DNA of 64,000 nt from contig JAHJCU010000004.1 of NCBI GenBank assembly GCA_018812925.1, positions 244,289 through 308,288 of the forward strand, given 5' to 3'. How positions within the stretch are numbered: the stretch's first letter is position 1; each line of letters starts with the position of its first letter. The DNA is from Candidatus Omnitrophota bacterium. Lineage in GTDB: Bacteria; CAIJMQ01. Below, piece by piece: positions 461 to 50,026 of the stretch. The translations under genes were made by a program, and so were the position numbers. The notes beneath the pieces are model-generated. The model ran no database searches. It was not told the DNA's origin and was given only the letters and a program-made list of their open reading frames with translations.

Positions 461-630
461 AATTACCATTTACTATTTACCCGAAGCACTCCTGTTGGAG
501 TGCGAAGTCCCCCCTGCTAGTTTTGCCCCGTGAAATTCGAAGAATTCCCTGCCCCTTGAAATTACATCCGCAATTTCTAAGGGTAAAAGCAAAACTAGGG
601 GGGATCGTTTATCCATTTACCAATTACGAG
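461..630. repeat. Composite intergenic repeat. Outer termini aattaccatttac / ccatttaccaattacg (family A). Internal hairpin core gaagtcccccctgctagttttgc...gcaaaactagggggg (family B).
   Basis: The terminus motif recurs at 2728-2862, 61891-61978 and 62588-62735. The core motif recurs at 37905-38097, 42030-42150, 42755-42835 and 47640-47760. Confidence 0.7.
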
Positions 631-36574: not shown

Positions 36575-37543
36575 TTACTTGAACATCTCAATATCCGCGC
36601 CGACTAATTCGCCGGCAACATCTTCCATCGTTATGATACCGGCACAACTACCCTTATGTCCCATAACAAATAATAGATGCTGTTTGTTTTGAATCATTGT
36701 AGTAAGAGCAACCATAAGATTATCGGACGACTGCACGCGAAGCATTGGCTTCGCCTGACTTATAATTTGCTCCAAGTCACTGGTAATAGTCGGCAGAACG
36801 CCTTTCATATTCACATATCCGTAAATACCCTGAATATCATCGGTATTGCTTATCGGATAACGCGTATGTTTAAAAGTATTTGCCAATTCAATAACATCTT
36901 CAATTCTATCGCTCTTTTTAATAAACTTGACCTTATCGCAGGCAATCATTGCTTTTTCGATAGTCGTATGACTTAATCGAATTGTATTCGCAATTATATT
37001 TTCCTGCTGCAGACCTATCACCTTGCCGGCACGCGCCATTGAAGCAAAAGTTACAATGTCTGCGGTTGTAATTTGTTCGTGTTCTCTGTCTCGCCCTATT
37101 CGGCTAAACATCATTTCACTTAAACGAACAACGGGATGAAGCGTTTTAGTTATTATTTCCAACGGTTTAGCCAAATACGGCGCCAATCTATCGCGGAACC
37201 TTACACCGATAATTTTGGGCAGTATTTCCGTTCCTAATAGGATAACTAATGTGAAAACTGCGGAAAAAATCCATATTGCGTTTTTTCCGTATAACTCGAC
37301 AAAAGCAGCGCCAGCCACAGTTGCGCCGCCAGTATGAGCAATTGTGTTTAATATCAATATTGCCGCTATCGGACGGGCAATGGTTTTCTTCATCCTTATC
37401 CAAGAATCTGCAACTTTCGGCCTATTGTGCTTCATCCTATTCATAGTAAGAGGATTAAGACTAAGTAATATGGCTTCAGCAAGCGAACATAGGAATGAGA
37501 CGACAACAGCAATAACAACACTAACAATGAATTTGGTAAACAT
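36575..37543 (-). CDS. CNNM/TlyC-family transporter-associated protein (DUF21 + CBS pair)
   Basis: N-terminal 4-TM DUF21, then tandem CBS domains. Confidence 0.7.
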   Translation of the reverse strand: MFTKFIVSVVIAVVVSFLCSLAEAILLSLNPLTMNRMKHNRPKVADSWIRMKKTIARPIAAILILNTIAHTGGATVAGAAFVELYGKNAIWIFSAVFTLVILLGTEILPKIIGVRFRDRLAPYLAKPLEIITKTLHPVVRLSEMMFSRIGRDREHEQITTADIVTFASMARAGKVIGLQQENIIANTIRLSHTTIEKAMIACDKVKFIKKSDRIEDVIELANTFKHTRYPISNTDDIQGIYGYVNMKGVLPTITSDLEQIISQAKPMLRVQSSDNLMVALTTMIQNKQHLLFVMGHKGSCAGIITMEDVAGELVGADIEMFK

Positions 37544-37641
37544 AGTTTTCCTCGTTTATATCTAATTATACAGAAAAACAAATGAAAAGAAATCTGTCTG
37601 CCCCCACATTTTCGCAAAGGCAAAACTATGGGGAGATGAGT

Positions 37642-37884
37642 CTATCTGATAATACTTAACACAATATAAGGAACAAGATTGCACGCAAATATAAACATCT
37701 TAAAAATAGCTATACCCGCGTAATGAATAGAATCAAACTTTTCCACAGACATCTTGAACCATTTACTATGCATTCTGTAAATAAAATCATGCATTAACAT
37801 AAAAGCCAGAAACCACCACAAAAGAAGCCCCATATTAATTACAAAACACCACCCAAACGCCTGACGTATAGCATCAATCGTCAT
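37642..37884 (-). CDS. Small membrane protein (80 aa, 2 TM)
   Basis: ORF bounded by the family B repeat upstream. Hydrophobic segments. Confidence 0.35.
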   Translation of the reverse strand: MTIDAIRQAFGWCFVINMGLLLWWFLAFMLMHDFIYRMHSKWFKMSVEKFDSIHYAGIAIFKMFIFACNLVPYIVLSIIR

Positions 37885-37904
37885 ATTACACCTCCTTAAA
37901 TTGG

Positions 37905-38097
37905 AACGTAGTTCCGATTTATCCCGCAGAGTATCGGAAAAATATCCCTTCTGGAAATTTTTCCGATGTCTTACGTCGCGGGATCCATCAACGTTTTAAT
38001 TACCCCCGCGGTTAGTTTTGCGAACACAGTGAGCAAAACTACGCCTGTCCCCGCGTCCAGATTTGCTTTGACAAATCTGCGGGGAGGGGTGTCATTA
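37905..38097. repeat. Family B composite hairpin element (three consecutive stem-loops; ends ggggaggggtgtcattac)
   Basis: atcggaaaaat...atttttccgat stem (also at 58948-59010). ttagttttgcgaacacagtgagcaaaacta stem. cagatttg...caaatctg stem. Confidence 0.7.
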
Positions 38098-38301
38098 CTT
38101 ATCCTTTTCATACTTTTCCACAATCTTTACTAGAATTGAACATATGCAATAAATAGACATGCAGATAAGCCCCGTACAAATTGCCATTAATCCGTGTAAC
38201 TTTGTTTGAGGATTAACTAGAATAATCAATCCGCAAACAATAAGAACCGCACCAAAAACCCATGGACAACCAACATATACCAACTTTTCCAATTTTGTCA
38301 T
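38095..38301 (-). CDS. Small membrane protein (68 aa)
   Basis: Two TM helices. Last gene of a same-strand string with the beta-lactamase-like and deaminase genes. Confidence 0.4.
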   Translation of the reverse strand: MTKLEKLVYVGCPWVFGAVLIVCGLIILVNPQTKLHGLMAICTGLICMSIYCICSILVKIVEKYEKDK

Positions 38302-38349
38302 CTCATTTCCCTCCTTTTAATTTTCAATTATACAAAAACCAAATCTGTT

Positions 38350-39567
38350 TCAACCCCCGCCTTTTCCATCTTTTTCCTTCTCTGAAAATAAAAGGCTTGG
38401 ATTATAGTTCGCATTACGCAGTGCTTCAACGAGTAACATATTGATTTCGCCGCCGGCTTTACTAGCTTCATCTCCGCCGATATTCATCATGACACAGGTT
38501 GCATAGTTCTGTTCAGGGACAATATGTACAATCGCATAACCACGAGATTGACTCTGCCCAGAATGCCAATAAACCGGACCTTTTGCCCAGTTTGTAGGCT
38601 GCACACGCCATCCTCCTGTTGTATAAAGCTTTCTTTTGCCCTTACCTATCTCAACCACTGTATAAAATTCCCTGAGCGTCTTTTGTGTGATTGGTAAACC
38701 TTCAGACTGCTTTGCTTGTGTTCCAAGCAGATGAAACGCGGCAAAGCGTCCAAGGTCAATTACAGAACAATGTATGCCTCCAACCGGACTTCGACAATAA
38801 ACAGAGTCCCCCGTTGGTGATAGGGGTGTGATTTTACCGTTGCGGAGTTGGTGATACCATGGAGCATCGATTAAATCTGGCGGTGTTGCCATCGGACCAA
38901 AACCAGCAGTATTCATCTTCAGCTTTTGGAATATAAGTTCATTGACAAAACTTTCCCACAATTTTCCAGTTAATCTCTCCTCCATACTTGCAACTATGAT
39001 TCCACCACCGCTATATATATAGGCACTACCCGGAATTGCTTCTTGTTTATCAGACAATGCCGCGGAAACATAAGCAACTCTCTGTTCCATAACGGTAGTT
39101 CCCCCTGCGTCTATATCTGCCTCTTTCATTGTGGGCTGATACGGAAGTCCGCTCGTATGACTTAGAAGCTGCCTAACCGTAACGTAGTGATAAAGGCTTT
39201 GATGACCAGGAAACATCTCAGGAAAAATCTGTCCTATTGTCGTATCCCAATCTAACTTATTTTGATCCTTCAAAATCGCGGTTAACGTTCCCGTTATCGG
39301 CTTTGTAATTGAACCTAACTCAAATGCATCATTACGCGTTACTGGAATATCTTCGCCCCATTTGCGAAGTCCAACCGCTGAGGCAACAACAACACGGTCT
39401 CCAATAACAATAGCAGCTGCTACAGCAGGTAACTTTCTCTTAATCCGTATCTCTTCAAGTTTCTTACGCAACAATGTGGGGTCTCTAATTAAAATCTCCC
39501 CACTAAAACAGGAGACAGTTATAAAGAAAATAACAAGGCAGAACAAAGAAAAACAAATCCGTTTCAT
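38350..39567 (-). CDS. Beta-lactamase-family serine hydrolase (AmpH/PBP4*-like), lipoprotein signal
   Basis: SITK (SxxK) active-site motif. Lipobox-like ITVSC. About 400 aa. Confidence 0.75.
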   Translation of the reverse strand: MKRICFSLFCLVIFFITVSCFSGEILIRDPTLLRKKLEEIRIKRKLPAVAAAIVIGDRVVVASAVGLRKWGEDIPVTRNDAFELGSITKPITGTLTAILKDQNKLDWDTTIGQIFPEMFPGHQSLYHYVTVRQLLSHTSGLPYQPTMKEADIDAGGTTVMEQRVAYVSAALSDKQEAIPGSAYIYSGGGIIVASMEERLTGKLWESFVNELIFQKLKMNTAGFGPMATPPDLIDAPWYHQLRNGKITPLSPTGDSVYCRSPVGGIHCSVIDLGRFAAFHLLGTQAKQSEGLPITQKTLREFYTVVEIGKGKRKLYTTGGWRVQPTNWAKGPVYWHSGQSQSRGYAIVHIVPEQNYATCVMMNIGGDEASKAGGEINMLLVEALRNANYNPSLLFSEKEKDGKGGG

Positions 39568-39594
39568 TTTAAGACCCTGACTCTTTTTTGCAAC

Positions 39595-40035
39595 TTAAAC
39601 TCCTATATCCTCGCTCCAAAGCTTTGGATTTTCGCTGATAAACTTTCGCATCATTGTTATGCATGTTTCATCCTGTAACACTTCCACATCTACACCTTTT
39701 GACTTGAGATATTCTTCCTCTCCCATAAACGTCTTGTTCTCGCCGATAACAACCCGCTTGATACCATACAATATTATGGCGCCCGAACACATAGGGCACG
39801 GTGAAAGCGTAGTATATAAAACGCATTCTTTATACACTGATGCCGGCCGGCGCTTCGCGTTTTCCAGAGCATCCATCTCAGCGTGCAAAATAACGCTTCC
39901 TTTCTGCACGCGCCTGTTGTGCCCCCGGCCGATTATCTTTCCACTATAAACAATAACAGCGCCTATGGGTATGCCTCCCTCACTTAAACCTTTTTTAGCT
40001 TCTTCTATAGCCGCCTTCATAAATTCATTTATCAT
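39595..40035 (-). CDS. Zinc-dependent cytosine deaminase, yeast Fcy1-like (CMP/dCMP deaminase fold)
   Basis: HAEMDALENA and LYTTLSPCPMCSGAIILYGIKRVVIGEN plus C-terminal ...ENPKLWSEDIG parallel yeast Fcy1 (HGEISTLEN, TTLSPCDMCTGAIIMYGIPRCVVGEN, ...RPQDWFEDIGE) as recalled. Confidence 0.7.
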   Translation of the reverse strand: MINEFMKAAIEEAKKGLSEGGIPIGAVIVYSGKIIGRGHNRRVQKGSVILHAEMDALENAKRRPASVYKECVLYTTLSPCPMCSGAIILYGIKRVVIGENKTFMGEEEYLKSKGVDVEVLQDETCITMMRKFISENPKLWSEDIGV

Positions 40036-40039
40036 AATT

Positions 40040-40192
40040 TTATTTTAACAAGACAATGCCGCTTACCACAGAAAATATTATTACTGCCCAATTATAAATG
40101 GTCCAAAAGGCATCCTTGTTAATAATCATACCCGCAATCGTAGCAACCGCTAAAACCAACAGCAACCCGCCAATAATCTTATTCTTTTTCAT
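40040..40192 (-). CDS. Small membrane peptide (50 aa), first gene of the deaminase/hydrolase string
   Basis: RBS GGAGGT 8 nt upstream. MKKNKIIGGLLLVLAVATIAGMIINKDAFWTIYNWAVIIFSVVSGIVLLK. Below the ORF-track length cut-off. Confidence 0.4.
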   Translation of the reverse strand: MKKNKIIGGLLLVLAVATIAGMIINKDAFWTIYNWAVIIFSVVSGIVLLK

Positions 40193-40202
40193 ATTAACCT
40201 CC

Positions 40203-40252
40203 ATTCAAGATTTGGGACTGTTTTTTCAATAATGTGTCATTGCAAGACCTGC
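40203..40252. repeat. Short form of the island punctuation element: aagatttgggactgtttttt + gtgtcattgcaagacc
   Basis: Both terminal motifs of the composite element adjacent to each other. Copies of each motif at 40625, 42010, 42735 and 42837, 47690. Confidence 0.7.
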
Positions 40253-40255
40253 TTC

Positions 40256-40588
40256 TTACCTCCCTCGTGAATTGTTGGACATATCTCTGTTGTTTATCTT
40301 AAGTATCGAAAACTTGCTTTCTAAATACTTGTCAAACGGAACCCCACTAAGCACTGCTCCAATGATCCAGCCATATAGAGTACCTGTGAAACCATATTTC
40401 ATGCCACCAAGATACGCCAAGGGAATGCCCGCAAAACAACACCCTAAAAACAACAGTGGCCAGTAGAACCAGTGATGTTTGCCAATAAGCCCTGTATGGC
40501 AAAGTGGACACGGAAATCGTCCGAAAGGAGCCTTGACATACCGCTTCCATGTCAACAGAAAATCACCATTGCATTGTGGGCATTTCAT
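40256..40588 (-). CDS. Zinc-ribbon (CPQC...CPLC) membrane protein, 110 aa
   Basis: N-terminal two CxxC pairs, then 2 TM helices. Confidence 0.45.
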   Translation of the reverse strand: MKCPQCNGDFLLTWKRYVKAPFGRFPCPLCHTGLIGKHHWFYWPLLFLGCCFAGIPLAYLGGMKYGFTGTLYGWIIGAVLSGVPFDKYLESKFSILKINNRDMSNNSRGR

Positions 40589-40624
40589 ACAATAATCCTC
40601 TTTTCAATTACACAAAATCCTTTT

Positions 40625-40644
40625 TAAGATTTGGGACTGTTTTT
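40625..40644 (-). promoter_or_regulatory. Conserved promoter-proximal motif AAAAACAGTCCCAAATCTTA 37 nt upstream of the start codon
   Basis: The same 20-mer sits 15-87 nt upstream of four consecutive transcription-unit starts (40207, 40625, 42010, 42735). Confidence 0.45.
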
Positions 40645-40675
40645 ATTTTAAAAGGCACCATCCCTTTTATTTTAT

Positions 40676-41923
40676 TTAAATAAAAAATAATGGCATAAAT
40701 AAGACGTTCCTTTTTTTGTCAAAAGCAAAATAATTTTCGGAAAGAACAACCATTTTATTCGGCGAATACTTTTCTTTAAAACTAAGTAAAGCTCTGCCGG
40801 TTTTATTGGAATGTAAAGTCGATTTTACCTCTACAGCAGTAATTTGCCCGCGTCTTTCCAATATAAAATCAATTTCCGCATTGGATTTTGTCCGCCAGTA
40901 ATTAATATTATCTTCTTCTTTTAATAATTGGCTCGCTACAAAATTCTCATTTAACTTACCTCTGTCAGTCCTTTGAACTAACTCCTGAAAATTATCTATC
41001 GCAACGTTTCGAAATCCGTTGTCACAAAAATAGACCTTAGGCGATTTGGCAATTTCAACCCTTTTATTTCTATAAAAAGGCATAACTTTTTTTATCAGAA
41101 AGGTCTTTTCCAAAATATTAATATGTTCCAATAGCTTTTTATAATTAAGAGAAGTAATCTGACTTAATTCATTATATACAACCAAAGAACCAGTCTGCAG
41201 AGCCAACGCTTTTATAAGCTTCTGCAATTCCAATTCTGTGCTTAATTGGAGTATATCTCTTATTTCCCTTAACAGATATATATTGTAGATATTTTTCAAT
41301 ACGGTGATTTTTTCTTCTTTGCCATCGGCAATCGCAACTCTGGGATAACCGCCATATATCACATATTCATAATAATATTTGCTTATTTCCTGTATTACTG
41401 CATCGGATACTAGAGGAGGTGTTTTTCTCTTATCCGCAAAATAATTATCTATTTTTTCTTTAACTTCCAAATAGAGATTTTCATAAAGCGCGGGGTTTCT
41501 AAAACTTAAAAATTCCTTAAAACTAAAAGGATAGAGTTGGAATGTAAAAATTCTGCCTACAAGATATTTAAGCGCTTGATTAGTTAAATCCAAAACAGAA
41601 GAACCGGAAATAATAATTTTTGTCTTATGAGTATCGTAAAGATATTTTAATTTCTGTCCGCCTTCTTTTGCATATTGGAATTCATCTATAAACAGATATT
41701 CGGCACCTTTTACATGCAGGTTATAAAATGTCTTAATATCATCATTAAACAAATTAAGAGTATCTCTGTCTTCAAAATCAATATATTTTGCTTTCTTAAG
41801 CGGTTTTGCTATTTGCTTTAAAAGCGTGGTTTTGCCCGATTGACGAGGACCAATAACCGCAAGAATTTCGGGTTTATTCAAATACGACTTGATTTTGTCC
41901 TCTAATTCCCTTTTGATATACAT
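40676..41923 (-). CDS. AAA+ ATPase with C-terminal DUF4143 (COG1373 family)
   Basis: Walker A GPRQSGKTTLL, Walker B FIDEFQ. About 415 aa, typical of this family. Confidence 0.75.
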   Translation of the reverse strand: MYIKRELEDKIKSYLNKPEILAVIGPRQSGKTTLLKQIAKPLKKAKYIDFEDRDTLNLFNDDIKTFYNLHVKGAEYLFIDEFQYAKEGGQKLKYLYDTHKTKIIISGSSVLDLTNQALKYLVGRIFTFQLYPFSFKEFLSFRNPALYENLYLEVKEKIDNYFADKRKTPPLVSDAVIQEISKYYYEYVIYGGYPRVAIADGKEEKITVLKNIYNIYLLREIRDILQLSTELELQKLIKALALQTGSLVVYNELSQITSLNYKKLLEHINILEKTFLIKKVMPFYRNKRVEIAKSPKVYFCDNGFRNVAIDNFQELVQRTDRGKLNENFVASQLLKEEDNINYWRTKSNAEIDFILERRGQITAVEVKSTLHSNKTGRALLSFKEKYSPNKMVVLSENYFAFDKKRNVLFMPLFFI

Positions 41924-42002
41924 AATTTTACCCCTGCTATTCTTTACTTTTGTTAAATTATAGCAGGTTTATTTTTAATGTCAAGGGATGAATTTCAAAA
42001 GA

Positions 42003-42155
42003 TGAAGAGTTAAGATTTGGGACTGTTTTTCGAAGTCCCCCTATTGGGGGACGAAGCCCCCATCGCCAGTTTTGCGAGCGGAGCGAGTGAAACTATGCAC
42101 TGTCCCCACTGCTAGTTTTGCGGAAGCAAAACTGTGGGGAGGGGTATACCCCTTT
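42003..42155. repeat. Composite element: ttaagatttgggactgttttt + family B hairpin core + ggggaggggtatacccctttttatttc
   Basis: Compare 42735-42858 and 504-606. Confidence 0.75.
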
Positions 42156-42698
42156 TTATTTCTTATCAACAGATTTATAATAAGCATTGGTGATTTTAAT
42201 TTCGTAATGGTCAAATTTGGGAATTGGCGCTTTATCACAGCCACTACAATCTACTACAAAATTCTCTTCCTCGCCAGGACGAAGGGTCCCTCTAATATAT
42301 TCAGAACATTCGTATACAAATTTCCCTTCTTTATCGAATAGTTCAACTTCAATATTAATTGAACCCCATGCATCGCTACCCGTATTAGCAACAACTCCAA
42401 CCACATTGAAGCTGTCTTCTGTTGGGAACCATTCGTGATGAGATTTGATTATCAGTCCTGAATCCTGACTAAAGTCTCTATACGTATAATCAAAACTTTT
42501 CTCAACCTTCTTCCCTATAAAATATATAGCTGTAAACATAATTGCAATGAATAAAAAACCATAAATGAAACCGGAGAGAGGATGATGTATAAAAACTGAA
42601 AACTTTGTCTGCCAATGATGGCAATGCGGACACCTTTTGGCACGACTATCAATCTGCTGATAACAAGACTTGCACTCCTTCATTTGTTTTTCATCCAT
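42156..42698 (-). CDS. Zinc-ribbon (CKSC...CPHC) membrane protein with about 120-aa extracytoplasmic domain, 180 aa
   Basis: Same architecture as 40256-40588 (N-terminal zinc ribbon, then TM) with a larger C-terminal domain. Confidence 0.45.
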   Translation of the reverse strand: MDEKQMKECKSCYQQIDSRAKRCPHCHHWQTKFSVFIHHPLSGFIYGFLFIAIMFTAIYFIGKKVEKSFDYTYRDFSQDSGLIIKSHHEWFPTEDSFNVVGVVANTGSDAWGSINIEVELFDKEGKFVYECSEYIRGTLRPGEEENFVVDCSGCDKAPIPKFDHYEIKITNAYYKSVDKK

Positions 42699-42734
42699 TT
42701 TCCCCTCCTTTTAATTTTTAAGAATATAGCATAG

Positions 42735-42858
42735 ATTAAGATTTGGGACTGTTTTTCGAAGTCCCCCTATTTGGGGGACGAAGCCCCCATCGCTAGTTTT
42801 ACGAGCGGAGCGAGTGAAACTATGGGGGTACTCTTCTGTCATTGCAAAACCTGACCAT
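42735..42858. repeat. Full-length composite element (ttaagatttgggactgttttt - gaagtccccc...gggggac - cccatcgctagttttacg...gaaactatggggg - tgtcattgcaaaacc)
   Basis: Near-identical to 42010-42100 over about 90 nt. Confidence 0.75.
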
Positions 42859-42880
42859 ATTTATTCGGTATTTCTTCATT

Positions 42881-44395
42881 CTAAAATTCGAATTGTTTTC
42901 CTTTTACTGCCGGAGCCCTTTTTAATACTTCTATTGAGTGTGAAGTAGGAATATTTAGTCTTGCGCCATTTAGCACTTCTTCAATTGTAACAATATTTAC
43001 AACAGGATATTTTGTCCCAGTTAAGTTATAAGCATAAGAACCTGCACTTTTAGATTCTGCAACCATAGGTTTTGTTGGAGATTCTAATGTTAAAAATATA
43101 CCCATAACTGCATCTTCCCTTCTCATGGCGCCTTCTAAATCTCTTATATCTCCCGATTTTATTTGTTCACCCGATTTAACCGAGAAAAGTATTTTTTTAT
43201 AAACATCCTTATCTTTTAATCTATCATCTAAAATAAAAGCAGTCCCATCTATACCCTTATCTGCCCCCTTCTTTTCGTTAATTATTGCTCTATTGTTTGT
43301 ATAAGTTAATACAGCCCATTTTTCAAATTCTTTTCTTAATCTGTCATCTTTTTTGTTTGCTAAAGCCCTTGCTGATTCTATGTCTTTAGGTATCCCATCT
43401 AAATGAATTTTATTCAAAACATCTTTACCAAAACTATCTTCAAGCCGTCTTAAAATAACACTGATACTTTGATAGGTAATATCAATTCCAACCCATCTTC
43501 TCTTTAATTTTTCTGCGACTGCAATAGAAGTTCCACATCCACAATAAGCATCTAAAATTATATTCCCTTCATTGCTACTTGCTTTGATTATTTGTTCTAA
43601 TAACTTTTCTGGCTTCTGTGTCGGATAACCTTGTCGTTCATTTCCAATTGGCGATATTTGAGGAATTATCCATACATCATTCATTTTTGTCCCATCTTCA
43701 TTAAAATAAACTTTGTATGGCGTTATATTCTTACCCTTTTTCCAGTAAAATTTCTTTCCATCTTCATCGTGTTCCCACGGATGGTTTTTAAGATTTGTTT
43801 CCTGATATGGTTGAAAAAGTGTATTAAATATAAAATCGTTTGTTTTTGAATATCTGAAAATAATGTCGTGCATTGTTTGAAAATCCCTACTCACGCCAGT
43901 ATATCTTCTATAATGCCAAATGAGTTCATTTCTAAAATCTCCCCCTTTAGGGCAAAATATTGCATCCAAAATTAACTTTAAATAATGACTTGCAGTAGGG
44001 TCGCAATGAAGATAAAAACTTCCTGTTGGTTTTAAAACTCTCTGAATTTCTGCAATTCGCAAAGTCATACTAACTAAATAAGCTAATAAACTTCCCTTAC
44101 CTAAGACTTTTGACAATCCCAATATTAAGTCAATGCTTTGTACAGTAAAAACTCCATTGTAATTTTCTGTTATTTGTTTAAGACCTTCATTCGCTTTATC
44201 GTCCCATTCCCAAGTATCAATAAATGCCTGTGCCTGTGCTTTGTCTTCCTCGCCCTTATTAAGATAAATTTGATTGTAAGTTCTTTTTGAATTAAAGGGA
44301 GGGTCAATGTAGCATAGGTCAATACTATTATCTTTAATCTTTTTCCTGAGTATTTCTAAATTATCGCCATAATAAAGTTTATTTTTGAATTCCAT
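42881..44395 (-). CDS. DNA methyltransferase (beta-class N6-A/N4-C; motif IV DPPF before motif I) fused to C-terminal Mrr-like restriction endonuclease domain
   Basis: CYIDPPFNS (motif IV). ILDAYCGCGTS (motif I). C-terminal GADKGIDGTAFILDD...ILFSVKSGEQIKSGDIRDLEGAM resembles the Mrr_cat GxDxGIDG...QxK core. Confidence 0.75.
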   Translation of the reverse strand: MEFKNKLYYGDNLEILRKKIKDNSIDLCYIDPPFNSKRTYNQIYLNKGEEDKAQAQAFIDTWEWDDKANEGLKQITENYNGVFTVQSIDLILGLSKVLGKGSLLAYLVSMTLRIAEIQRVLKPTGSFYLHCDPTASHYLKLILDAIFCPKGGDFRNELIWHYRRYTGVSRDFQTMHDIIFRYSKTNDFIFNTLFQPYQETNLKNHPWEHDEDGKKFYWKKGKNITPYKVYFNEDGTKMNDVWIIPQISPIGNERQGYPTQKPEKLLEQIIKASSNEGNIILDAYCGCGTSIAVAEKLKRRWVGIDITYQSISVILRRLEDSFGKDVLNKIHLDGIPKDIESARALANKKDDRLRKEFEKWAVLTYTNNRAIINEKKGADKGIDGTAFILDDRLKDKDVYKKILFSVKSGEQIKSGDIRDLEGAMRREDAVMGIFLTLESPTKPMVAESKSAGSYAYNLTGTKYPVVNIVTIEEVLNGARLNIPTSHSIEVLKRAPAVKGKQFEF

Positions 44396-44774
44396 TAATC
44401 CCTCCTTTTCTGTCCTTTAATTTTATTCATTAAATATAGTGAAAGGCTTAAGTAGCAGGTCACAACCATTGTCGGTTATAATTGTCTACACCTTGTTGTA
44501 TTTCGCCTATTAAAATTTCCCTTGGAATCTAAAAATACACCAAAGCAGGGGATAGCGCCTGCTATTCCTTTGCCAAGCCTTTCACAAAACACAACCCTTC
44601 TAGATCCCTTTAACAAGATTATCCAAAGACCCTGAGGAACAATCTCAGGGTTTTCTCTGGGTCTTAATTATGGGAAGGCATGGGTATGCTTCGTTAAAAA
44701 AGCACTTATGTGCTTCATAGCATACCTCCTTTCGGATTGTATCGTTATTAAAACTACTCTTTCAGAGAACGTAT

Positions 44775-44815
44775 GTGTATAATATAATCTCTTAAACAAT
44801 AATAATCAACAAAGA
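44775..44815. repeat. 40-bp direct repeat copy 1 (tgtgtataatataatctcttaaacaataataatcaac). Contains TATAAT.
   Basis: Copy 2 at 47818-47858 immediately upstream of cmk. The two copies bracket the SBP-like/GGDEF module. Confidence 0.7.
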
Positions 44816-44921
44816 TGTTATTGCGAGGTCCGATGACTTTGAAAAGAGCGAGCACCGGACTTCTTCTAACAGTATCTTAAATGCGAAATTTTTACTATAA
44901 TCGCTGATAGGTCTCATAAAA

Positions 44922-46151
44922 ATGGAAAAAGAAATTCTAAAATTCTGGCTGATGCCCAATTCGGGCTTTGAAACCGCAGAGATAATCGATACGGAAATTA
45001 AAGAGTTCACAAAAAAGAATCCATCCGTTGACGTTCAATACGATATTATTCCTTGGGCGCGCGCTTGGGAAAGGATTGTAGAGCACATTAAAAATAAATC
45101 CTGCCCCGATGTTATCCAAATAGGCAATTCGTGGAGCGGAACGCTTTCCATGTTTAAATCTTTTGCCGATATTTCAAAATATAAAAAAGAAATAGTAAAA
45201 AAGAATTTTTTGTTTGATGTTGTCGGCTCTTCTCCGCTGACGAGTAATGACGGCAACAACTGCCTTCCGTGGTTCGCTGATATACGCATTTTATATTATC
45301 GAAAAGATATTTTAGAGAAATACCATATCCCCACAGAATGGCTGGATACATGGGAAGGAATTGTTCGTGTTTGCGAGAAACTAAAAAAAATAGACGAACA
45401 AGGTATATCCCCAATTGGAGTTTCGGGACAATTTGAACAGACACTTGTCCAAGATATTGCCTGCTGGATATGGAACGCGGGCGGAGATTTCTTTTCTAGA
45501 GACAAGGGGAAAATCTTAATAAATCAAAAAGAGTCAATCAACGGCATGGAGTTTTATTTTGACTTAATTAACAACTATTCTTCTAAGGAAGCTCTGTTTA
45601 AAAACTACAGCTATGTCGCAGACAACTTTTTCTTAAGGGATAAATATGCGCTGTATTTCTCGAGTCCGTGGCACCTCGTGACCTTCCTGAGCAAAAACAA
45701 TCCGCATTTCAGTAAAAAGTTGCACAAAAAGATAGGCATAGCTTTATTTCCTAAGAGCACTCTTCAGAGAACTACTTTTCGCGGAGGTAGCGACCTTGCT
45801 ATTATGAGGTCTACTTCTATGTTTAAGGAATCTCTTGAATTGATTAAATTTCTGGTTTCCAGACAGTCCCAGGCAAGATATTGTAAGAATATCGGAATGC
45901 TCCCGTCAAATATGAAAGCTTTTGAATCAATATATATACAAAATACAACTCAGAAGAAAATACTAAAAGAATCCTATAAAATAGGTAGGGGATTCCCTAA
46001 TCATTTATACTGGGGCAGCATGGAAATAATTGTGGCGCGGTCTTTCTCCAAAATAATGAAGAAAATTGCGGAGAACAGATACAACCATAATATTTTAAAG
46101 AAAGAGATTGACTATCTTGCGGAACAGATGGAATACGTAATAAATTTATAA
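44922..46151 (+). CDS. Family-1 extracellular solute-binding protein homologue lacking a signal peptide (cytoplasmic SBP-like)
   Basis: The sequence begins directly with the mature-SBP beta-strand (EILKFWLMPNSG...IQIGNSWSGTL; cf. MalE LVIWINGDKG...FGGYA). No hydrophobic leader. Confidence 0.65.
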   Translation: MEKEILKFWLMPNSGFETAEIIDTEIKEFTKKNPSVDVQYDIIPWARAWERIVEHIKNKSCPDVIQIGNSWSGTLSMFKSFADISKYKKEIVKKNFLFDVVGSSPLTSNDGNNCLPWFADIRILYYRKDILEKYHIPTEWLDTWEGIVRVCEKLKKIDEQGISPIGVSGQFEQTLVQDIACWIWNAGGDFFSRDKGKILINQKESINGMEFYFDLINNYSSKEALFKNYSYVADNFFLRDKYALYFSSPWHLVTFLSKNNPHFSKKLHKKIGIALFPKSTLQRTTFRGGSDLAIMRSTSMFKESLELIKFLVSRQSQARYCKNIGMLPSNMKAFESIYIQNTTQKKILKESYKIGRGFPNHLYWGSMEIIVARSFSKIMKKIAENRYNHNILKKEIDYLAEQMEYVINL

Positions 46152-46160
46152 AAAGTATTC

Positions 46161-47627
46161 ATGATTAAAATAAAGAGAATAAAAGAGATTCTGCGGATTA
46201 ACAGGCACTTGAAAGCATTAAATCGAATCAGCCAGAGTTTCCATTTTCTCAACGATATAAAAATACCATTGAAGATGGTTATAGAAAATATCTTAAAAGA
46301 GATGAAACTTGATGAAACCACAATACTTTTATACAAGAAAGAAAGCAAAGCTCTCTACTCTATTTTATTTGCTACCGAAAGAGGCATTCAAGAAGGAGAA
46401 GAATTTATACTGATAGAGCCAAACGACTTTTTTGCTTCTCTTTTATCTAATGAAACAAAATATAAGTATTTGCCGAAAGAGTTTACCCTCTATATCCCGA
46501 TAAAGTATAGAAATTTGCCTATTGGTATTCTGCGGGCAAGAAACGACACATCAAAAAGACCGATTAATAAGAAATATATCCAACTTCTGGTTGATTACAC
46601 AAATATAATTGCATCAGGGATATATGATGTCAACAGGTCTTCTGAAAATCAGAAGTTTCTAAATAAGTTAGTGGCGTTATCAAACATCACTATATCAGCC
46701 ATCAGCACTCTGGAGAAAAAAAGAATATTGGGCATTATTTTAAAAGATATTGTTATGAGTCTCGGATTTGACAGGGTAAAACTTTATCTTATGAATGACA
46801 AAGGGGACTCATTAAACGGAGTTATGTCATTTGATATAAGGGGAAGAATAAAAATCATAAAAAATGAGAAATATCCTATCGGCAAGGGAACAAACAGGTT
46901 TTATAACGAGTTAATTGCGCGGCAAAAAAGAATGTTTAAATTAAATAAAGATATTTTTGGGCTAGTTAAAGTTTTCCCTATGAAAGTTAAAAACCAGATT
47001 ATTGGATTTATGGAAGTGGACAATATTTTCAGTCGTCAGATTATCAGCAAGGAAGACATAGATCATCTTAAATTATTCATCAATCAGACGAGCATTGCAA
47101 TAGAAAACGCCCGCCTTTACAACAGGGTAACGGAACTTTCAATAAAAGATGAACTTTCGGGTCTTTATAATGCCCGCCATTTCTATCAGCAATTAGAAAA
47201 TGAACTGGCAAGGATAGAAAGATACCAAAACCCTCTTGCTATAATTATGATAGATATCGACTACTTCAAAAAATACAACGATAATTACGGACATCTGACA
47301 GGCGACAATATTATAAGGGATATCGGTGAAATAATTTCCAACAGCGTGCGAACAATTGATATCCCGGCGCGTTACGGCGGGGACGAATTCATAGTACTAT
47401 TAGTTAACTGTTCGCTTGACCAGGCGGTTAAAGTCGCCCAAAGAATTAAAAGGGGAGTTGACAATAGCAATTTTACGTTTAAAGGAAAAAAATTAAAGAT
47501 TACAGTAAGTATGGGAGTAGCAGTCCATCCCCCCAGAAAAATATCAGGTAAGGAACTTGTGAAATTAGCAGACAGTTCTCTTTATAAAGCAAAACAGGCA
47601 GGAAGAAACAAAATCTACCCGAGTTAG
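46161..47627 (+). CDS. Diguanylate cyclase (tandem GAF-like N-terminal region + GGDEF), cytoplasmic
   Basis: RYGGDEF active site, IMIDIDYFKKYND. No TM segments. 9-nt gap from the SBP-like gene. Confidence 0.85.
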   Translation: MIKIKRIKEILRINRHLKALNRISQSFHFLNDIKIPLKMVIENILKEMKLDETTILLYKKESKALYSILFATERGIQEGEEFILIEPNDFFASLLSNETKYKYLPKEFTLYIPIKYRNLPIGILRARNDTSKRPINKKYIQLLVDYTNIIASGIYDVNRSSENQKFLNKLVALSNITISAISTLEKKRILGIILKDIVMSLGFDRVKLYLMNDKGDSLNGVMSFDIRGRIKIIKNEKYPIGKGTNRFYNELIARQKRMFKLNKDIFGLVKVFPMKVKNQIIGFMEVDNIFSRQIISKEDIDHLKLFINQTSIAIENARLYNRVTELSIKDELSGLYNARHFYQQLENELARIERYQNPLAIIMIDIDYFKKYNDNYGHLTGDNIIRDIGEIISNSVRTIDIPARYGGDEFIVLLVNCSLDQAVKVAQRIKRGVDNSNFTFKGKKLKITVSMGVAVHPPRKISGKELVKLADSSLYKAKQAGRNKIYPS

Positions 47628-47639
47628 AAATTCCACAAA

Positions 47640-47760
47640 AGCCCCCATTACCAGTCTCGCCATTATATCTTTGGTAGACTGTGGGGGAGTGTCATTGCAA
47701 GACCCGAAGTCCCCATTGCCAGTTTTGCGAACGCAAAACTATGGGGATGACCCCATTTTT
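47640..47760. repeat. Family B-type hairpin element ending in terminator-like stem (ccccattgccagttttgcgaacgcaaaactatgggg) + ATTTTT
   Basis: Shares gtgtcattgcaagaccc and cagttttgcg...gcaaaactatgggg with the island elements. Confidence 0.65.
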
Positions 47761-47817
47761 AGGCTATTTCTTATCGCCATTTTTTAGGTTCTCATATCCA
47801 ACAACTATACGGCAATT

Positions 47818-47858
47818 TTCCTGTATAATATAGCCTCTTAAACAATAATAATCAACTA
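47818..47858. repeat. 40-bp direct repeat copy 2 (tgtataatatagcctcttaaacaataataatcaac). Probable cmk promoter/leader.
   Basis: See 44775-44815. Confidence 0.7.
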
Positions 47859-47867
47859 AGGAGAGCA

Positions 47868-48536
47868 ATGAAAAAGAACACTATTATCACGATTGACGGG
47901 CCTGCTGGAGCGGGAAAGACAACTATTGCAAAAGAGGTTGCAAAACGCTTAGGATTTTTATATTTAGATACGGGAGCGATGTATAGGGCGCTCACTTTGA
48001 AGGCGCTAACAGAAGGTATAACGGTTGAAGAGGAAGAGAAACTTGTGGAAATGGTGAAGGAAACTATTTTAATAGCGAAGAAAGATGATAAGAAGGGAAT
48101 GAGGATATGGGTGGACGGAGAAGAAGTGACTGACAAGATACGAACCGAAGAGGTAACGAATAACATCTGGTGGGTGTGTAGAGTAAAAGATGTGCGGAAG
48201 AAGATGAAGAAGCTTCAGAGGGAAATCGGTTCAAGTGGCGGAATTGTTGTGGAAGGCAGAGATATCGGCACGGTTGTATTCCCCAAGGCACCTTTCAAAT
48301 TTTATCTGGATGCTTCTATTGATGAGCGGGCAAAAAGAAGATGGCTTGAACAAACTAATAAAGGAATACAAAGCGACCTTGAAAAAATTAAGCAGGATAT
48401 AAAAGAAAGAGATAATAAAGATTTCACAAGAGAAATTGCGCCCTTAAAAAAAGCAGAAGATGCTATTTCGGTGGATACGACGGGGCTCTCTATCGAAGAT
48501 GTAGTAGGGAAAATTATCGAGCAAGTAAGTCAATGA
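47868..48536 (+). CDS. cmk: Cytidylate kinase
   Basis: ITIDGPAGAGKTT P-loop and overall Cmk pattern. Confidence 0.9.
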   Translation: MKKNTIITIDGPAGAGKTTIAKEVAKRLGFLYLDTGAMYRALTLKALTEGITVEEEEKLVEMVKETILIAKKDDKKGMRIWVDGEEVTDKIRTEEVTNNIWWVCRVKDVRKKMKKLQREIGSSGGIVVEGRDIGTVVFPKAPFKFYLDASIDERAKRRWLEQTNKGIQSDLEKIKQDIKERDNKDFTREIAPLKKAEDAISVDTTGLSIEDVVGKIIEQVSQ

Positions 48537-48549
48537 CAATCAAAAAAAC

Positions 48550-48632: not shown

Positions 48633-48639
48633 ATTTAAA

Positions 48640-50022: not shown

Positions 50023-50026
50023 CTAA

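What the first reader, a model, noticed from the sequence alone, without database searches (positions are those of the whole stretch)
37642..44395. Seven-kb repeat-punctuated accessory island: every transcription unit is bounded by copies of one composite hairpin element
Between the CNNM gene and the SBP-like gene, all genes lie on the minus strand. Each unit is separated by a modular repeat of about 50-190 bp. The module has three parts:
- a 5-prime module AAAAACAGTCCCAAATCTTAA (plus-strand ttaagatttgggactgttttt at 40207, 40625, 42010, 42735).
- an optional multi-hairpin core (gaagtccccc..gggggac, cc(a/c)tcgc(c/t)agttttgcg...gcaaaactatgggg).
- a 3-prime module ggtcttgcaatgacac (40235, 42837; degenerate at 38088).
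The cargo is accessory-type:
- an MTase-Mrr fusion.
- a DUF4143 ATPase.
- two zinc-ribbon membrane proteins.
- a string of 50-aa peptide, Fcy1-like cytosine deaminase, lipoprotein serine hydrolase and 68-aa peptide.
The layout (unidirectional small cassettes, each followed by a structured imperfect-palindromic site) is reminiscent of an integron cassette array or CALIN. The sites do not look like canonical attC, and no integrase is in the window.
Copies of the same element also occur at 461-630 and 47640-47760. The element is therefore a genome-dispersed MITE/REP that is strongly concentrated here.
Basis: seen in the sequence. Interest (0 to 1): 0.75.

Follow-up and report, generated by a model that had tools for sequence, protein, structure and literature searches.

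The report
Hairpin-repeat mosaic in a hypervariable gene region
In an uncultured Omnitrophota bacterium, a 10-kb stretch between two conserved genes swaps its gene content between related species, and its gene junctions are built from short hairpin repeats, a 21-base junction motif and promoter pieces; it resembles known REP/BIME repeats and phage "regulatory cassettes", and it is not an integron.

Summary
The repeats are real. The 21-nt "5' module" occurs 4 times (0.01 expected). The hairpin core is a conserved bulged stem-loop with 9 copies in the window, 8 of them between CNNM and cmk.

The spacers are a mosaic of independent pieces, and only 4-5 of 10 spacers carry hairpins. The two "modules" themselves are unstructured.

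The organism is a Candidatus Omnitrophota bacterium. In six related genomes the cmk-MnmE-SecDF side is syntenic, while the stretch between cmk and CNNM (where CNNM is seen) holds a different gene set each time, drawn partly from a shared pool. The variable region is therefore 37544-47867, wider than reported.

Of 27 hairpin copies in 184 kb surveyed, 26 lie in these variable regions, almost all in one orientation. Two gene blocks (DUF4143; 50aa+deaminase) are about 89% identical between genomes whose core genes are 72-80% identical. Their similarity ends exactly at the last base of the junction motif.

No attC core sites, integrase, transposase or RAYT were found.

Best reading: REP/BIME-like hairpins plus promoter/terminator-like junction cassettes in a hyperplastic region, analogous to phage PeSLs. 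A new site-specific cassette system is not excluded.

The parts
37544..47867 (.). Hypervariable (hyperplastic) region between the conserved CNNM gene and the conserved cmk gene
   Evidence: Relatives L039, L041, L042, L047, L048 and L005 keep cmk-MnmE-acyltransferase-SecF-SecD-YajC-TGT. L039 and L041 also keep CNNM. Between the anchors each carries a different gene set.
40205..40225 (-). Junction motif copy M1 (AAAAACAGTCCCAAATCTTGA in gene sense), 2 nt upstream of the Shine-Dalgarno sequence of the 50-aa gene
   Evidence: The same motif lies in front of the 50aa+deaminase block in L005.
40624..40644 (-). Junction motif copy M2, 31 nt after the DUF4143 stop codon. It is the 3' end of the DUF4143 block.
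   Evidence: Similarity between the window and L048 ends at its last base.
42010..42030 (-). Junction motif copy M3, downstream of the 180-aa gene with a hairpin cluster inserted in front of it
   Evidence: In L042 the same motif directly follows the orthologous 180-aa gene.
42736..42756 (-). Junction motif copy M4, downstream of the MTase-Mrr gene and its hairpins, upstream of the 180-aa gene
39571..39588 (-). Variant junction motif AAAAAGAGTCAGGGTCTT directly after the deaminase stop codon. It is the 3' end of the 50aa+deaminase block.
   Evidence: Similarity to L005 ends right after GGTCTT.
40234..40249 (-).
   Evidence: In L042 the same motif (GGTCTT-hairpin-AATGACAC) carries the -35 of a promoter cassette.
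42836..42851 (-). Linker motif copy with 2 mismatches
47689..47704 (-). Linker motif copy lying between two hairpin repeats
38007..38084 (-). Two tandem bulged hairpin repeats (38049-38084 and 38007-38043). The doublet is conserved at 85% in L005, next to different genes.
   Evidence: folding z = -5.0.
42061..42139 (-). Two tandem bulged hairpin repeats (42104-42139 and 42061-42097)
   Evidence: folding z = -5.2.
42785..42827 (-). Bulged hairpin repeat
   Evidence: 58.8 bits.
47643..47746 (-). Two bulged hairpin repeats (47711-47746 and 47643-47686) between the GGDEF gene and cmk. They are co-oriented with the array although the local genes are on the + strand.
37602..37633 (-). Weak, bulge-less copy of the hairpin repeat, just upstream of the CNNM promoter
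   Evidence: (E about 0.1).
509..602 (-). The only copy of the hairpin repeat outside the variable region (long loop, different flanks)
42035..42052 (.). Mini-hairpin GTCCCCC-TATT-GGGGGAC (outer stem only). A second copy lies at 42761-42779.
37919..37987 (-). Second hairpin family, inserted upstream of DUF6868. Copies also lie at 58928-59019 (+) and in L005 between the junction motif and the 50-aa gene.
38327..38346 (-). Promoter-like cassette AGATTTGGTTTTTGTATAAT upstream of the 68-aa gene. The same cassette (97%) precedes an unrelated 134-aa gene in L027.
41957..41984 (-). Consensus sigma-70 promoter (TTGACA, 16 nt, TATAAT, preceded by TG) of the DUF4143 gene. It marks the 5' end of the DUF4143 block.
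44776..44814 (+). Duplicate of the cmk promoter segment (92% to 47822-47860). The two copies bracket the SBP-GGDEF block that relatives lack.
47822..47860 (+). cmk promoter segment, conserved upstream of cmk in relatives
42881..44395 (-). N6_N4 DNA methyltransferase fused to an Mrr-like nuclease domain
42156..42698 (-). 180-aa zinc-ribbon membrane protein. Its orthologue (80% aa) sits in a different neighbourhood in L042.
40676..41923 (-). AAA_14/DUF4143 ATPase (PADLOC candidate defence family PDC-S01)
40256..40588 (-). 110-aa zinc-ribbon membrane protein
39595..40192 (-). 50-aa peptide gene (40040-40192) plus cytidine/cytosine deaminase gene (39595-40035), forming one block
38350..39567 (-). 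Beta-lactamase-family serine hydrolase
37642..38301 (-). 68-aa peptide gene (38095-38301) and DUF6868 gene (37642-37884)
44922..47627 (+). Solute-binding protein gene and GAF-GGDEF diguanylate cyclase gene. They are part of the variable region, since they are absent next to cmk in relatives.

Best explanation
The window comes from a Candidatus Omnitrophota chromosome. The segment between the conserved genes CNNM and cmk is a hyperplastic region. Related species carry different sets of accessory genes there, partly drawn from a common pool and arranged in different orders.

The spacers in this region are built from a small vocabulary of separable units:
1. An unstructured junction motif that overlaps or directly follows the stop codon of the upstream gene block. 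It reads (T)AAAAAC(A/G)GTC...TCTT(AA).
2. Zero to three copies of a REP-like hairpin: a 6-bp outer stem CCCCAY/RTGGGG, a 4-nt one-sided bulge, an 8-bp inner stem and a variable loop. All copies point the same way.
3. A linker (ACTTYGGGTCTT...AATGACAC) and an extended -10 promoter piece (AGATTTGGTTTTTGTATAAT).

Shown: the mosaic anatomy, the conserved hairpin structure, the confinement to the variable region in several species, and hairpin presence/absence differences at otherwise identical junctions. Also shown: gene blocks end precisely at the junction motif, and two blocks are more similar between genomes than the core genes are.

Inferred:
- The hairpins are small mobile or duplicating elements that insert next to the junction motif, often directly 3' of TCTT(A)(A).
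- In the transcript, the hairpins and promoter pieces act as terminator/stabiliser plus promoter units that insulate independently acquired genes.
- The repeated junction sequences are the places where recombination joins, deletes and swaps gene blocks, as described for promoter-stem-loop cassettes (PeSLs) of T4-type phages.

It is not an integron or CALIN.
For: Repeats:
- They are above chance.
- A covariance model finds 9 copies in the window and 18 in relatives.
- 92% of cells pair, against 35-49% when partners are slid, and 7 of 14 pairs show compensatory changes.
- Hairpin-bearing spacers fold with z = -2.7 to -5.2. Module-only spacers do not.

Variable region:
- Synteny on the cmk-MnmE-SecDF side, with a different gene set on the other side, is seen in L005, L039, L041, L042, L047 and L048.
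- 26 of 27 hairpin copies lie in variable regions, which make up 59 of the 184 kb surveyed (binomial 3e-12). For window spacers alone, Fisher p = 0.008.
- AAAAAC[AG]GTC[AC]-type junction motifs are found about 23 times in variable regions, all in gene sense, and once elsewhere.

Mosaic nature:
- In L027 a 116-nt hairpin sits between the motif and the DUF4143 promoter, where the window has none.
- In L005 a 118-nt hairpin sits between the motif and the 50-aa gene, where the window has none.
- In L022, L042 and L048 the hairpin follows the motif, while in the window it precedes it.

Blocks:
- DUF4143 is 89.0% identical (window/L048) against 72-77% for core genes. Similarity starts at the -35 and ends at the last base of the motif.
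- 50aa+deaminase is 89.6% identical (window/L005) against about 80% for core genes, ending after GGTCTT.
- The 180-aa gene is 80% identical (aa) in a different neighbourhood.
- The promoter/RBS piece upstream of the 68-aa gene is 97% identical to the one before an unrelated gene in L027.
- The SBP-GGDEF block is bracketed by a duplicated cmk promoter segment.

Promoter reading: a 12/12 consensus promoter precedes DUF4143. TGTATAAT occurs 5 times in the window. Four occurrences are intergenic, in sense, 22-139 nt before gene starts at or in the variable region.

PeSL analogy: PMC2839356, PMC4122927.
Against: - No expression data exist, so the promoter, terminator and stabiliser roles are inferred from sequence only. 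The hairpins are not followed by a U-run in gene sense, so they are not classical intrinsic terminators.
- The function of the 21-nt motif is unknown. Its perfect conservation across species whose core genes are only 72-80% identical is not explained by a merely structural or spacer role.
- Only 75 kb of the source genome and about 20 kb per relative (8 kb for L005) could be surveyed. 'Confined to this region' may fail genome-wide, and there may be other such regions.
- Within the species the island is identical in at least 6 assemblies. No ongoing shuffling is seen.
- Homologous recombination at 20-40-nt repeats is inefficient, and exact block ends at one motif could equally indicate a site-specific enzyme.
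Confidence: 0.6

Rival explanations
1. This is a previously undescribed site-specific cassette system. The junction motif (ending in TCTTAA) and/or the one-orientation bulged hairpins would be substrates of a strand-specific recombinase or HUH/Y1-type single-strand transposase encoded elsewhere in the genome. That enzyme would insert hairpins and whole gene blocks directly 3' of the motif. The system would be integron-like in outcome but use different sites and a different enzyme.
For: - Block similarity ends at the exact last base of the motif in two independent comparisons.
- Hairpins of at least three different families abut TCTT, TCTTA or TCTTAA.
- 25 of 27 hairpin copies have the array's orientation, including two that lie between oppositely oriented genes.
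- The one-sided 4-nt bulge and variable loop recall structure-specific single-strand sites such as attC, REP and IS200/IS605 ends (PMC5027507, PMC6006769).
- Two blocks are about 10-15 points more similar than core genes.
- A Logan contig from another sample (L004) begins 2 nt from the 5' edge of M1. That is what a graph branch at this junction would give.
Against: - No integrase, transposase or Y1/RAYT gene lies in the window or its 10-kb flanks.
- The 21-nt motif has no dyad symmetry and does not fold.
- The number of hairpins per junction varies from 0 to 3.
- At the orthologous position after the SNase gene the motif diverges like ordinary sequence in L039 and L041.
- The 5' ends of blocks are not at a common site.
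- No structural variation is seen within the species.
Confidence: 0.15
2. The repeats are passengers. The cmk-CNNM interval is simply a tolerated integration hot spot, renewed by homologous recombination in the conserved flanks after DNA uptake. Selfish REP/MITE-like hairpins accumulate there because insertions are harmless. On this reading the repeats play no part in gene turnover and have no important regulatory role.
For: - The conserved anchors on both sides would allow flank-mediated replacement.
- Composition within the region is heterogeneous, from GC 0.31 to 0.43 against about 0.37 around it.
- The window holds several other hairpin repeat families in ordinary intergenic regions, so hairpin repeats are a general trait of this genome.
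- L047 has a variable region with no copy of this hairpin family.
Against: - Flank-mediated replacement predicts whole-region swaps. It does not predict the same blocks in different internal orders with ends at a common motif.
- The 21-nt motif is identical in species with 72-80% core identity, which argues for constraint or recent spread.
- Promoter/RBS pieces are shared by unrelated genes.
- The SBP-GGDEF block is bracketed by a promoter duplication.
Confidence: 0.2
3. The region is an integron cassette array without integrase (CALIN) with atypical attC sites.
For: The small genes are unidirectional. Structured sites with a one-sided bulge and variable loop lie between some of them, all in one orientation.
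Against: - No spacer holds an RYYYAAC...GTTRRRY pair, and only 2+2 single core-site matches occur in 1713 nt on both strands.
- The conserved outer stem is CCCCAY/RTGGGG, without the AAC triplet that all attC sites share (PMC5027507).
- Several junctions lack any hairpin and others have two or three.
- Cassettes have their own promoters.
Confidence: 0.03

Closest known systems
PeSLs (promoter-early stem-loop regulatory cassettes) of T4-type phages (Arbiol et al. 2010, PMC2839356; Comeau et al. 2014, PMC4122927)
   Same: Both are small composite units of a sigma-70-like promoter plus stem-loop, repeated between non-essential genes. Both are concentrated in hyperplastic regions that interrupt conserved core blocks. 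In both, insertions, deletions and replacements between relatives have their breakpoints at the units.
   Different: - The host here is a bacterial chromosome (Omnitrophota), not a phage genome.
- The stem-loop is a REP-like bulged hairpin that varies in number and position.
- An extra unstructured 21-nt junction motif is present.
- Promoter and terminator activity and mini-circles are untested here.
REP sequences and BIMEs of Proteobacteria, with their RAYT/TnpA-REP transposases (PMC3733652, PMC6006769, PMC3116915)
   Same: Both are short imperfect extragenic palindromes in many copies, mostly downstream of genes. Both combine with other short motifs into mosaics. Both have a structure conserved by compensatory changes, and related but diverged families in related species.
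   Different: - No unpaired GTAG or CGTC tag is present. The conserved flank is CGAAG/CAAAG.
- All copies are in direct orientation, not the alternating or inverted pairs typical of BIMEs and REPINs.
- Within the sequence surveyed, copies are concentrated in one locus rather than dispersed.
- No RAYT gene is in view.
Integron cassette arrays / CALIN (PMC4889954, PMC5027507)
   Same: Both have unidirectional small accessory genes, structured sites with one-sided unpaired bases and a variable loop in a single orientation, blocks with defined ends, and no integrase nearby (as in CALIN).
   Different: - There are no R'/R'' core sites and no AAC triplet in the outer stem.
- Each junction has 0-3 hairpins.
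- Cassettes carry their own promoters.
- The block boundary is an unstructured 21-nt motif, not the hairpin.
Correia elements and 'minimal mobile elements' of Neisseria (from my own knowledge, not checked in the library)
   Same: Both involve small repeats carrying promoter or terminator signals in intergenic regions, and variable gene cassettes held between conserved flanking genes and exchanged among relatives.
   Different: Correia elements have 26-bp terminal inverted repeats and a TA duplication. The units here do not, except possibly the 116-nt hairpin in L027.

Membership tests
Integron cassette array / CALIN | At least two attC sites, i.e. hairpins whose R boxes carry RYYYAAC / GTTRRRY with the invariant AAC triplet (PMC5027507, PMC4889954) | tested here: not met
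   A regex for RYYYAAC-N43-127-GTTRRRY on both strands of all 10 spacers (with 20-nt margins) gave 0 pairs. The conserved outer stem of the hairpin is CCCCAY/RTGGGG.
Integron cassette array / CALIN | Sites recognised by the IntegronFinder attC covariance model | not testable with these tools
   The model is not available here. Rfam holds no match in 37400-48000 even at E <= 1.
Integron cassette array / CALIN | Integron integrase (IntI) adjacent. This is required for a complete integron but not for a CALIN. | tested here: not met
   No Phage_integrase or other recombinase is among the Pfam annotations of the genes called in the window and about 10 kb beyond it. A few small ORFs were not scanned.
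Integron cassette array / CALIN | One site at the 3' end of each mostly promoterless cassette | tested here: not met
   Each junction has 0 to 3 hairpins. A 12/12 consensus promoter precedes DUF4143, and extended -10 motifs precede other genes.
REP / BIME | Short (20-40 bp) imperfect extragenic palindromes in multiple copies, with a conserved stem-loop | tested here: met
   There are 27 copies in 184 kb, all intergenic. 92% of cells pair and 7 of 14 pairs show compensatory changes.
REP / BIME | Unpaired GTAG or CGTC tag at one end (PMC3733652) | tested here: not met
   The flank next to the hairpin foot is CGAAG/CAAAG on the window + strand (ACTTCG/ACTTTG/GCTTCG in gene sense), or other units.
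REP / BIME | Neighbouring units in opposite orientation (BIME, REPIN) | tested here: not met
   Tandem copies are direct, and 25 of 27 copies share the array orientation.
REP / BIME | High copy number dispersed over the genome | tested here: inconclusive
   Only 75 kb of the source genome was readable. It holds 9 copies, 8 of them in one 10-kb region.
REP / BIME | Cognate RAYT/TnpA-REP gene flanked by REPs (PMC6006769) | not testable with these tools
   None lies in the 75 kb seen. The rest of the 419-kb contig and the genome cannot be read here.
PeSL-type regulatory cassettes | Composite of a sigma-70-like promoter and a stem-loop, repeated between genes | tested here: inconclusive
   By sequence the feature is met: hairpins plus AGATTTGGTTTTTGTATAAT-type and TTGACA/TATAAT promoters. 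Promoter and terminator activity was not tested, and the hairpins lack a U-run.
PeSL-type regulatory cassettes | Concentration in hyperplastic regions between conserved core blocks | tested here: met
PeSL-type regulatory cassettes | Breakpoints of indels or replacements between relatives lie at the cassettes | tested here: met
   Shown for the DUF4143, 50aa+deaminase and 180-aa blocks, the hairpin presence/absence differences, and the duplicated cmk promoter around SBP-GGDEF.
PeSL-type regulatory cassettes | Phage (T4-type) genome context | tested here: not met
   The flanks are bacterial housekeeping genes (FtsZ, FtsA, SecDF, RNase Y, FtsH). The motif is absent from IMG/VR contigs.
IS200/IS605-type hairpin elements (PATE-like) | Insertion directly 3' of a fixed tetra- or pentanucleotide, without target duplication and on one strand only | tested here: inconclusive
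   Hairpins abut TCTT/TCTTA/TCTTAA in L005, L022, L027, L042 and L048, and nearly all share one orientation. Many other copies abut other units, however, and no TnpA gene is seen.

The most novel reading that the evidence does not exclude
The cmk-CNNM region of this Omnitrophota clade is a cassette array of a new kind. Gene blocks would be delimited at their 3' end by an asymmetric, unstructured 21-nt motif that supplies or follows the stop codon (TAAAAACRGTC...TCTTAA). Both whole blocks and single-orientation bulged hairpins would be inserted directly 3' of that motif by a strand-specific enzyme encoded elsewhere, of HUH/Y1 or another type. That would make it an integron-like gene-capture system that evolved independently of IntI/attC.
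Probability: 0.15. Interest if true: 0.75.

Novelty: new variant of a known kind. Interest (0 to 1): 0.45.

Why it matters
Omnitrophota are uncultured, and almost nothing is known about how their genomes gain and reshuffle accessory genes. No paper in the searched library links them to REPs or integrons.

This locus gives a concrete, cross-species example. A hyperplastic region between fixed core genes has junctions built from a small set of repeat units. Its gene blocks have exact ends and are more alike than the core genes of the same genomes.

If the junction units are regulatory cassettes that also serve as recombination points, the PeSL principle described for T4-type phages would also operate in a bacterial chromosome. 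If a dedicated enzyme is involved instead, it would be a new gene-capture system.

Either way, the 21-nt motif and the hairpin model give search handles for finding such regions in other MAGs.

Tried and rejected
- **Riboswitch or ncRNA reading of the hairpins:** Rfam finds nothing at gathering threshold in the window, nor at E <= 1 in 37400-48000. The second hairpin family occurs in both orientations relative to genes, so it is not a leader RNA.
- **tRNA-linked island:** there are no tRNA or tmRNA genes in the window.
- **Compositional island:** GC is heterogeneous (0.31-0.43) but shows no clean step.
- **Genome-wide mapping with the 19-mer of the module:** this yielded 13 loci in GTDB genomes and 16 in JGI metagenomes. 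Only L005, L018, L022, L023, L027 and L031 are true relatives. The rest lie in CDSs of unrelated taxa, or in two palindromic terminator-like hairpins (L013, L015), close to the roughly 4 chance hits expected for a 19-mer.
- **Phage origin:** the module has 0 hits in IMG/VR. One hairpin-pattern hit is a chance match inside a CDS and is not recognised by the model.
- **The module as a promoter:** it holds no -35/-10 pair, and sigma-54 and ECF patterns do not fit (read from the sequence). The generic promoter scan is no better than shuffles (32 found against 36 expected).
- **The module as a hairpin half:** it is unpaired in all folds.
- **The 3' module as the complement of the 5' module (attC-like ends):** they are not complementary.
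- **Assembly artefact:** rejected, because the island is 100% identical in at least 6 independent assemblies.
- **Defence-island reading:** only the DUF4143 ATPase (PDC-S01) and the MTase match PADLOC. The cargo in relatives is mixed (glycoside hydrolases, PfkB, HMA, nucleases).

Full report

The 21-nt "5' module" TTAAGATTTGGGACTGTTTTT lies on the + strand at 40205 (one mismatch), 40624, 42010 and 42736. Shuffles give 0.01 matches. The "3' module" GGTCTTGCAATGACAC lies on the minus strand at 40234, 42836 (two mismatches) and 47689.

The genes are as described:
- CNNM, 36575-37543
- DUF6868, 37642-37884
- a 68-aa peptide
- a beta-lactamase-family hydrolase
- a cytidine/cytosine deaminase preceded by a 50-aa peptide gene
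- a 110-aa and a 180-aa zinc-ribbon membrane protein
- an AAA_14/DUF4143 ATPase
- an N6_N4 methyltransferase fused to an Mrr-like domain

All of these are on the minus strand. A solute-binding protein gene, a GGDEF gene and cmk follow on the plus strand.

The claim that every unit is bounded by one composite hairpin element does not hold. Of the ten spacers between CNNM and cmk, four (five with a weak copy) hold the hairpin. Two hold only the module and do not fold better than shuffles (z = +0.97 and -0.81). Three hold neither the 21-nt module nor the hairpin, and one of those has a variant junction motif.

**2. Source and stability**

The window is part of a 419-kb metagenome contig (ENA ERZ27247128). 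Its cmk protein is named by NCBI as from Candidatus Omnitrophica/Omnitrophota. The island is 100% identical in at least six other assemblies, including GCA_018817465.1 and GCA_018823485.1. It is therefore not an assembly artefact, and it is fixed within this species.

**3. Anatomy of the hairpin**

In gene sense (the window minus strand) the hairpin reads 5'-CCCCAY-AGTTTTGC-loop-GCAAAACT-NNNN-RTGGGG-3'. It has a 6-bp outer stem, an 8-bp inner stem, a 4-nt bulge on the 3' arm only, and a loop of 4 to about 80 nt.

A covariance model built from nine copies finds these window copies, all in the same orientation:
- 509-602
- 38007-38043 and 38049-38084
- 42061-42097 and 42104-42139
- 42785-42827
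- 47643-47686 and 47711-47746
- a weak copy at 37602-37633

Across 28 distinct sequences, 92% of cells pair, against 35-49% when the partners are slid. Seven of 14 pairs show changes on both sides, for example AGTTTTGC/GCAAAACT against AGTCCGCC/GGCGAGACT. That alignment was fitted to the model, so it leans towards the structure. Spacers that hold the hairpins fold with z = -2.7 to -5.2.

**4. The spacers are a mosaic, not one element**

Read in gene sense, the spacers of the window and of relatives follow a loose grammar:
- the stop codon
- a junction motif, (T)AAAAAC(A/G)GTC...TCTT(AA)
- zero to three hairpins
- a linker, ACTTYGGGTCTT...AATGACAC
- a promoter-like piece, AGATTTGGTTTTTGT(A/G)TAATTGA
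- the ribosome-binding site

A variant, AAAAAGAGTCAGGGTCTT, follows the deaminase stop at 39571-39588. At the orthologous position after the SNase gene, four relatives show graded versions:
- L005: AAAAACAGTCCCAAATCTTAA
- L042: AAAGCAGTCCCAAATCTTA
- L041: AAAAAGGGTCA
- L039: AAAAGAGATCGA

In L042 the same GGTCTT...AATGACAC holds an inserted hairpin and supplies the -35 (ATGACA, 16 nt, TATAAT) of a promoter cassette.

The units are separable:
- L027 has a 116-nt hairpin between the motif and the DUF4143 promoter, where the window has none.
- L005 has a 118-nt hairpin between the motif and the 50-aa gene, where the window has none.
- In L022, L042 and L048 the hairpin follows the motif. In the window it precedes it.

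**5. The region is hypervariable between species**

Six related genomes were examined. Their cmk proteins are 72-91% identical to the window's. All keep cmk-MnmE-acyltransferase-SecF-SecD-YajC-TGT-SHMT-FtsZ-FtsA on one side. Two of them show CNNM(-DUF192) as the other anchor (L005).

Between the anchors the gene sets differ completely in order, and largely in content. They draw on a shared pool:
- SNase-HhH: five genomes
- DUF4143: window, L027, L048
- MTase-Mrr: window, L047
- DUF6868: window, L005, L048
- 50aa+deaminase: window, L005
- the 180-aa protein: window and L042, 80% identical
- UPF0150, HMA, Fer4 and a diphthamide-synthase-like gene

SBP-GGDEF is absent next to cmk in all relatives. 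In the window it is bracketed by two 92% identical copies of the cmk promoter segment, at 44776-44814 and 47822-47860. The variable region is therefore 37544-47867, wider than the finding. The rest of the window encodes housekeeping genes.

**6. Enrichment**

In the window plus 11 kb of extra flank, 8 of 9 hairpin copies lie in the variable region. In the relatives all 18 copies do, and none lies in about 70 kb of conserved flank.

Overall, 26 of 27 copies lie in 59 of the 184 kb surveyed (binomial 3e-12). At the level of window spacers, 4 of 10 against 1 of 32 carry a copy (Fisher p = 0.008). Copies are partly tandem, so these figures overstate independence.

The junction motif is likewise found about 23 times in variable regions, always in gene sense, and once elsewhere. 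Other hairpin repeat families occur in ordinary spacers of the window. Hairpin repeats as such are thus a general trait of this genome. It is this family and this motif that are local.

Genome-wide distribution could not be measured.

**7. Cassette-like behaviour**

Window 40624-41987 (DUF4143 with its promoter and the downstream motif M2) is 89.0% identical to L048 5778-7133. The core genes of the same two genomes are 72-77% identical. The similarity starts at the -35 (CCCTTGACA) and stops at the last base of ...CAAATCTTAA. After that point the window continues with the next gene's promoter, and L048 continues with a hairpin.

The 50aa+deaminase block is 89.6% identical to L005 against about 80% for core genes. 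Its similarity stops right after AAAAAGRGTCAGGTCTT.

The promoter/RBS piece before the window's 68-aa gene is 97% identical to the piece before an unrelated 134-aa gene in L027.

Hairpins of three families abut TCTT, TCTTA or TCTTAA. In L022 and L018, open reading frames run through the motif in two different frames. In L022 its TAA is the stop codon.

These facts show discrete blocks that have moved between lineages or positions, with the junction motif as their 3' end. They do not show the enzyme or the mechanism.

**8. What it is not**

- No spacer holds an RYYYAAC...GTTRRRY pair, and the conserved outer stem lacks the AAC triplet shared by all attC sites (PMC5027507).
- Junctions have 0-3 hairpins, and cassettes have promoters.
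- No integrase, transposase or Y1/RAYT gene lies in the window or within 10 kb of it.
- The hairpins lack the GTAG/CGTC tag and the alternating orientation of classical REP/BIME families (PMC3733652).
- The elements are absent from IMG/VR.
- No Rfam family matches.

**9. Most likely working**

Shown: the anatomy, the conservation of structure, the confinement to the hyperplastic region in several species, the presence/absence differences, the block ends at the motif, and the elevated identity of two blocks.

Inferred:
- The hairpins are small duplicating or mobile units that settle next to the junction motif.
- Hairpin plus promoter pieces act as terminator/stabiliser and promoter, so that each acquired gene is insulated and expressed. 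TGTATAAT occurs five times in the window. Four occurrences are intergenic, in sense, 22-139 nt before the starts of CNNM, the 68-aa gene, SBP and cmk.
- The repeated junctions are where recombination deletes, joins and swaps blocks.

This is the logic described for PeSLs in the hyperplastic regions of T4-type phages (PMC2839356, PMC4122927). I give this reading 0.6.

The rivals are these:
- A dedicated strand-specific enzyme acting at the motif or hairpins (0.15). It is favoured by the exact ends, the single orientation and the insertions 3' of TCTT(AA). It is weakened by the absence of any candidate gene and by the variable number of hairpins.
- Repeats as passengers in a hot spot renewed through its flanks (0.2).
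- A CALIN with atypical attC sites (0.03).

The function of the perfectly conserved 21-nt motif remains unexplained by any of them.

**10. Novelty and score**

REP-like mosaics, hypervariable islets and regulatory-cassette shuffling are all known. The new elements here are:
- the combination, in an uncultured phylum
- the single orientation
- the confinement to one locus across species
- an unstructured stop-codon-linked junction motif as block end

I file it as a new variant of a known kind, interest 0.45.

Noticed in passing
window 10131-10268 and 25068-25192 (+ strand): Two structured elements of about 135 nt share a closing stem ACCCCGTT.AGAGAT / ATCTCTAACGGGGT and a terminal hairpin GGTCGCCA...TGGCGACC (MFE -42 and -38 kcal/mol). 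They have no Rfam match. They could be an unknown ncRNA or another repeat family.
   Followed up: partly
window 48543-48646, 50025-50128, 50510-50561 and, inverted, 53642-53748; gene at 50131-50493: A repeat family of about 100 nt (CGGTTATCG...CGATAACCG) flanks MnmE and a small 23S_rRNA_IVP/bAvd-like gene. That gene sits at the same place in L041 and between cmk and MnmE in L047. It is absent in L039, L042 and L048, so it looks like a second small mobile unit.
   Followed up: partly
window 2731-2830 and 62621-62720; also 445-485 and 61883-61964: A 100-nt inverted repeat (92%) has copies 59.8 kb apart. It belongs to a hairpin family flanked by ATTACCATTTAC-type short repeats, distinct from the family studied here.
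   Followed up: no
window 37919-37987 (-) and 58928-59019 (+); L005 4440-4545: A second long hairpin family (CCCGCGACGTAAGACATCGGAAAAATTTC...) occurs in both orientations relative to genes. It is therefore a repeat element, not a leader RNA.
   Followed up: partly
window 37903-37915; L039 about 8870-8885; L005 about 4535-4555; L048 about 905-925 and 9085-9105: A mini-hairpin sits directly 5' of the Shine-Dalgarno sequence and keeps its pairing through compensatory changes: GGAACGTAGTTCC, GGAACTGCGTTCC, TTTAAACGCGGTTTAAA and TTAACCATAGGTTAA. It may be a 5'-end stabiliser of the transcripts.
   Followed up: no
window 44776-44814 and 47822-47860: A 39-nt segment of the cmk promoter/leader is duplicated 3046 nt apart and brackets the SBP-GGDEF block. 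This looks like the footprint of the event that placed that block next to cmk.
   Followed up: partly
window 28790-30770: Two tandem paralogous DUF6263 genes are about 78-85% identical at 1012-nt spacing.
   Followed up: no
L046 14188-17316 (about 4-7 kb right of the window end): A block of two DNA methyltransferase genes and a 329-aa gene lies between core genes. It may be another small accessory insertion in the same genome.
   Followed up: no
L015 6823-6865 and L013 1735-1775 (unrelated genomes): The module's 19-mer is also one arm of long palindromic terminator-like hairpins in two unrelated organisms. This is most likely chance, given about 4 random hits expected for a 19-mer in the collection.
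   Followed up: partly
L004 position 1 (window 40227); L002 and L037 position 1 (window 42039); L036 and L038 starts (about window 42771 and 42727): Contigs of the same strain from other samples end within a few to about 35 nt of junction motif copies. The ends near M3 and M4 are explained by their shared 35-nt repeat. The end 2 nt from M1 is not, and may mark strain variation at that junction.
   Followed up: partly
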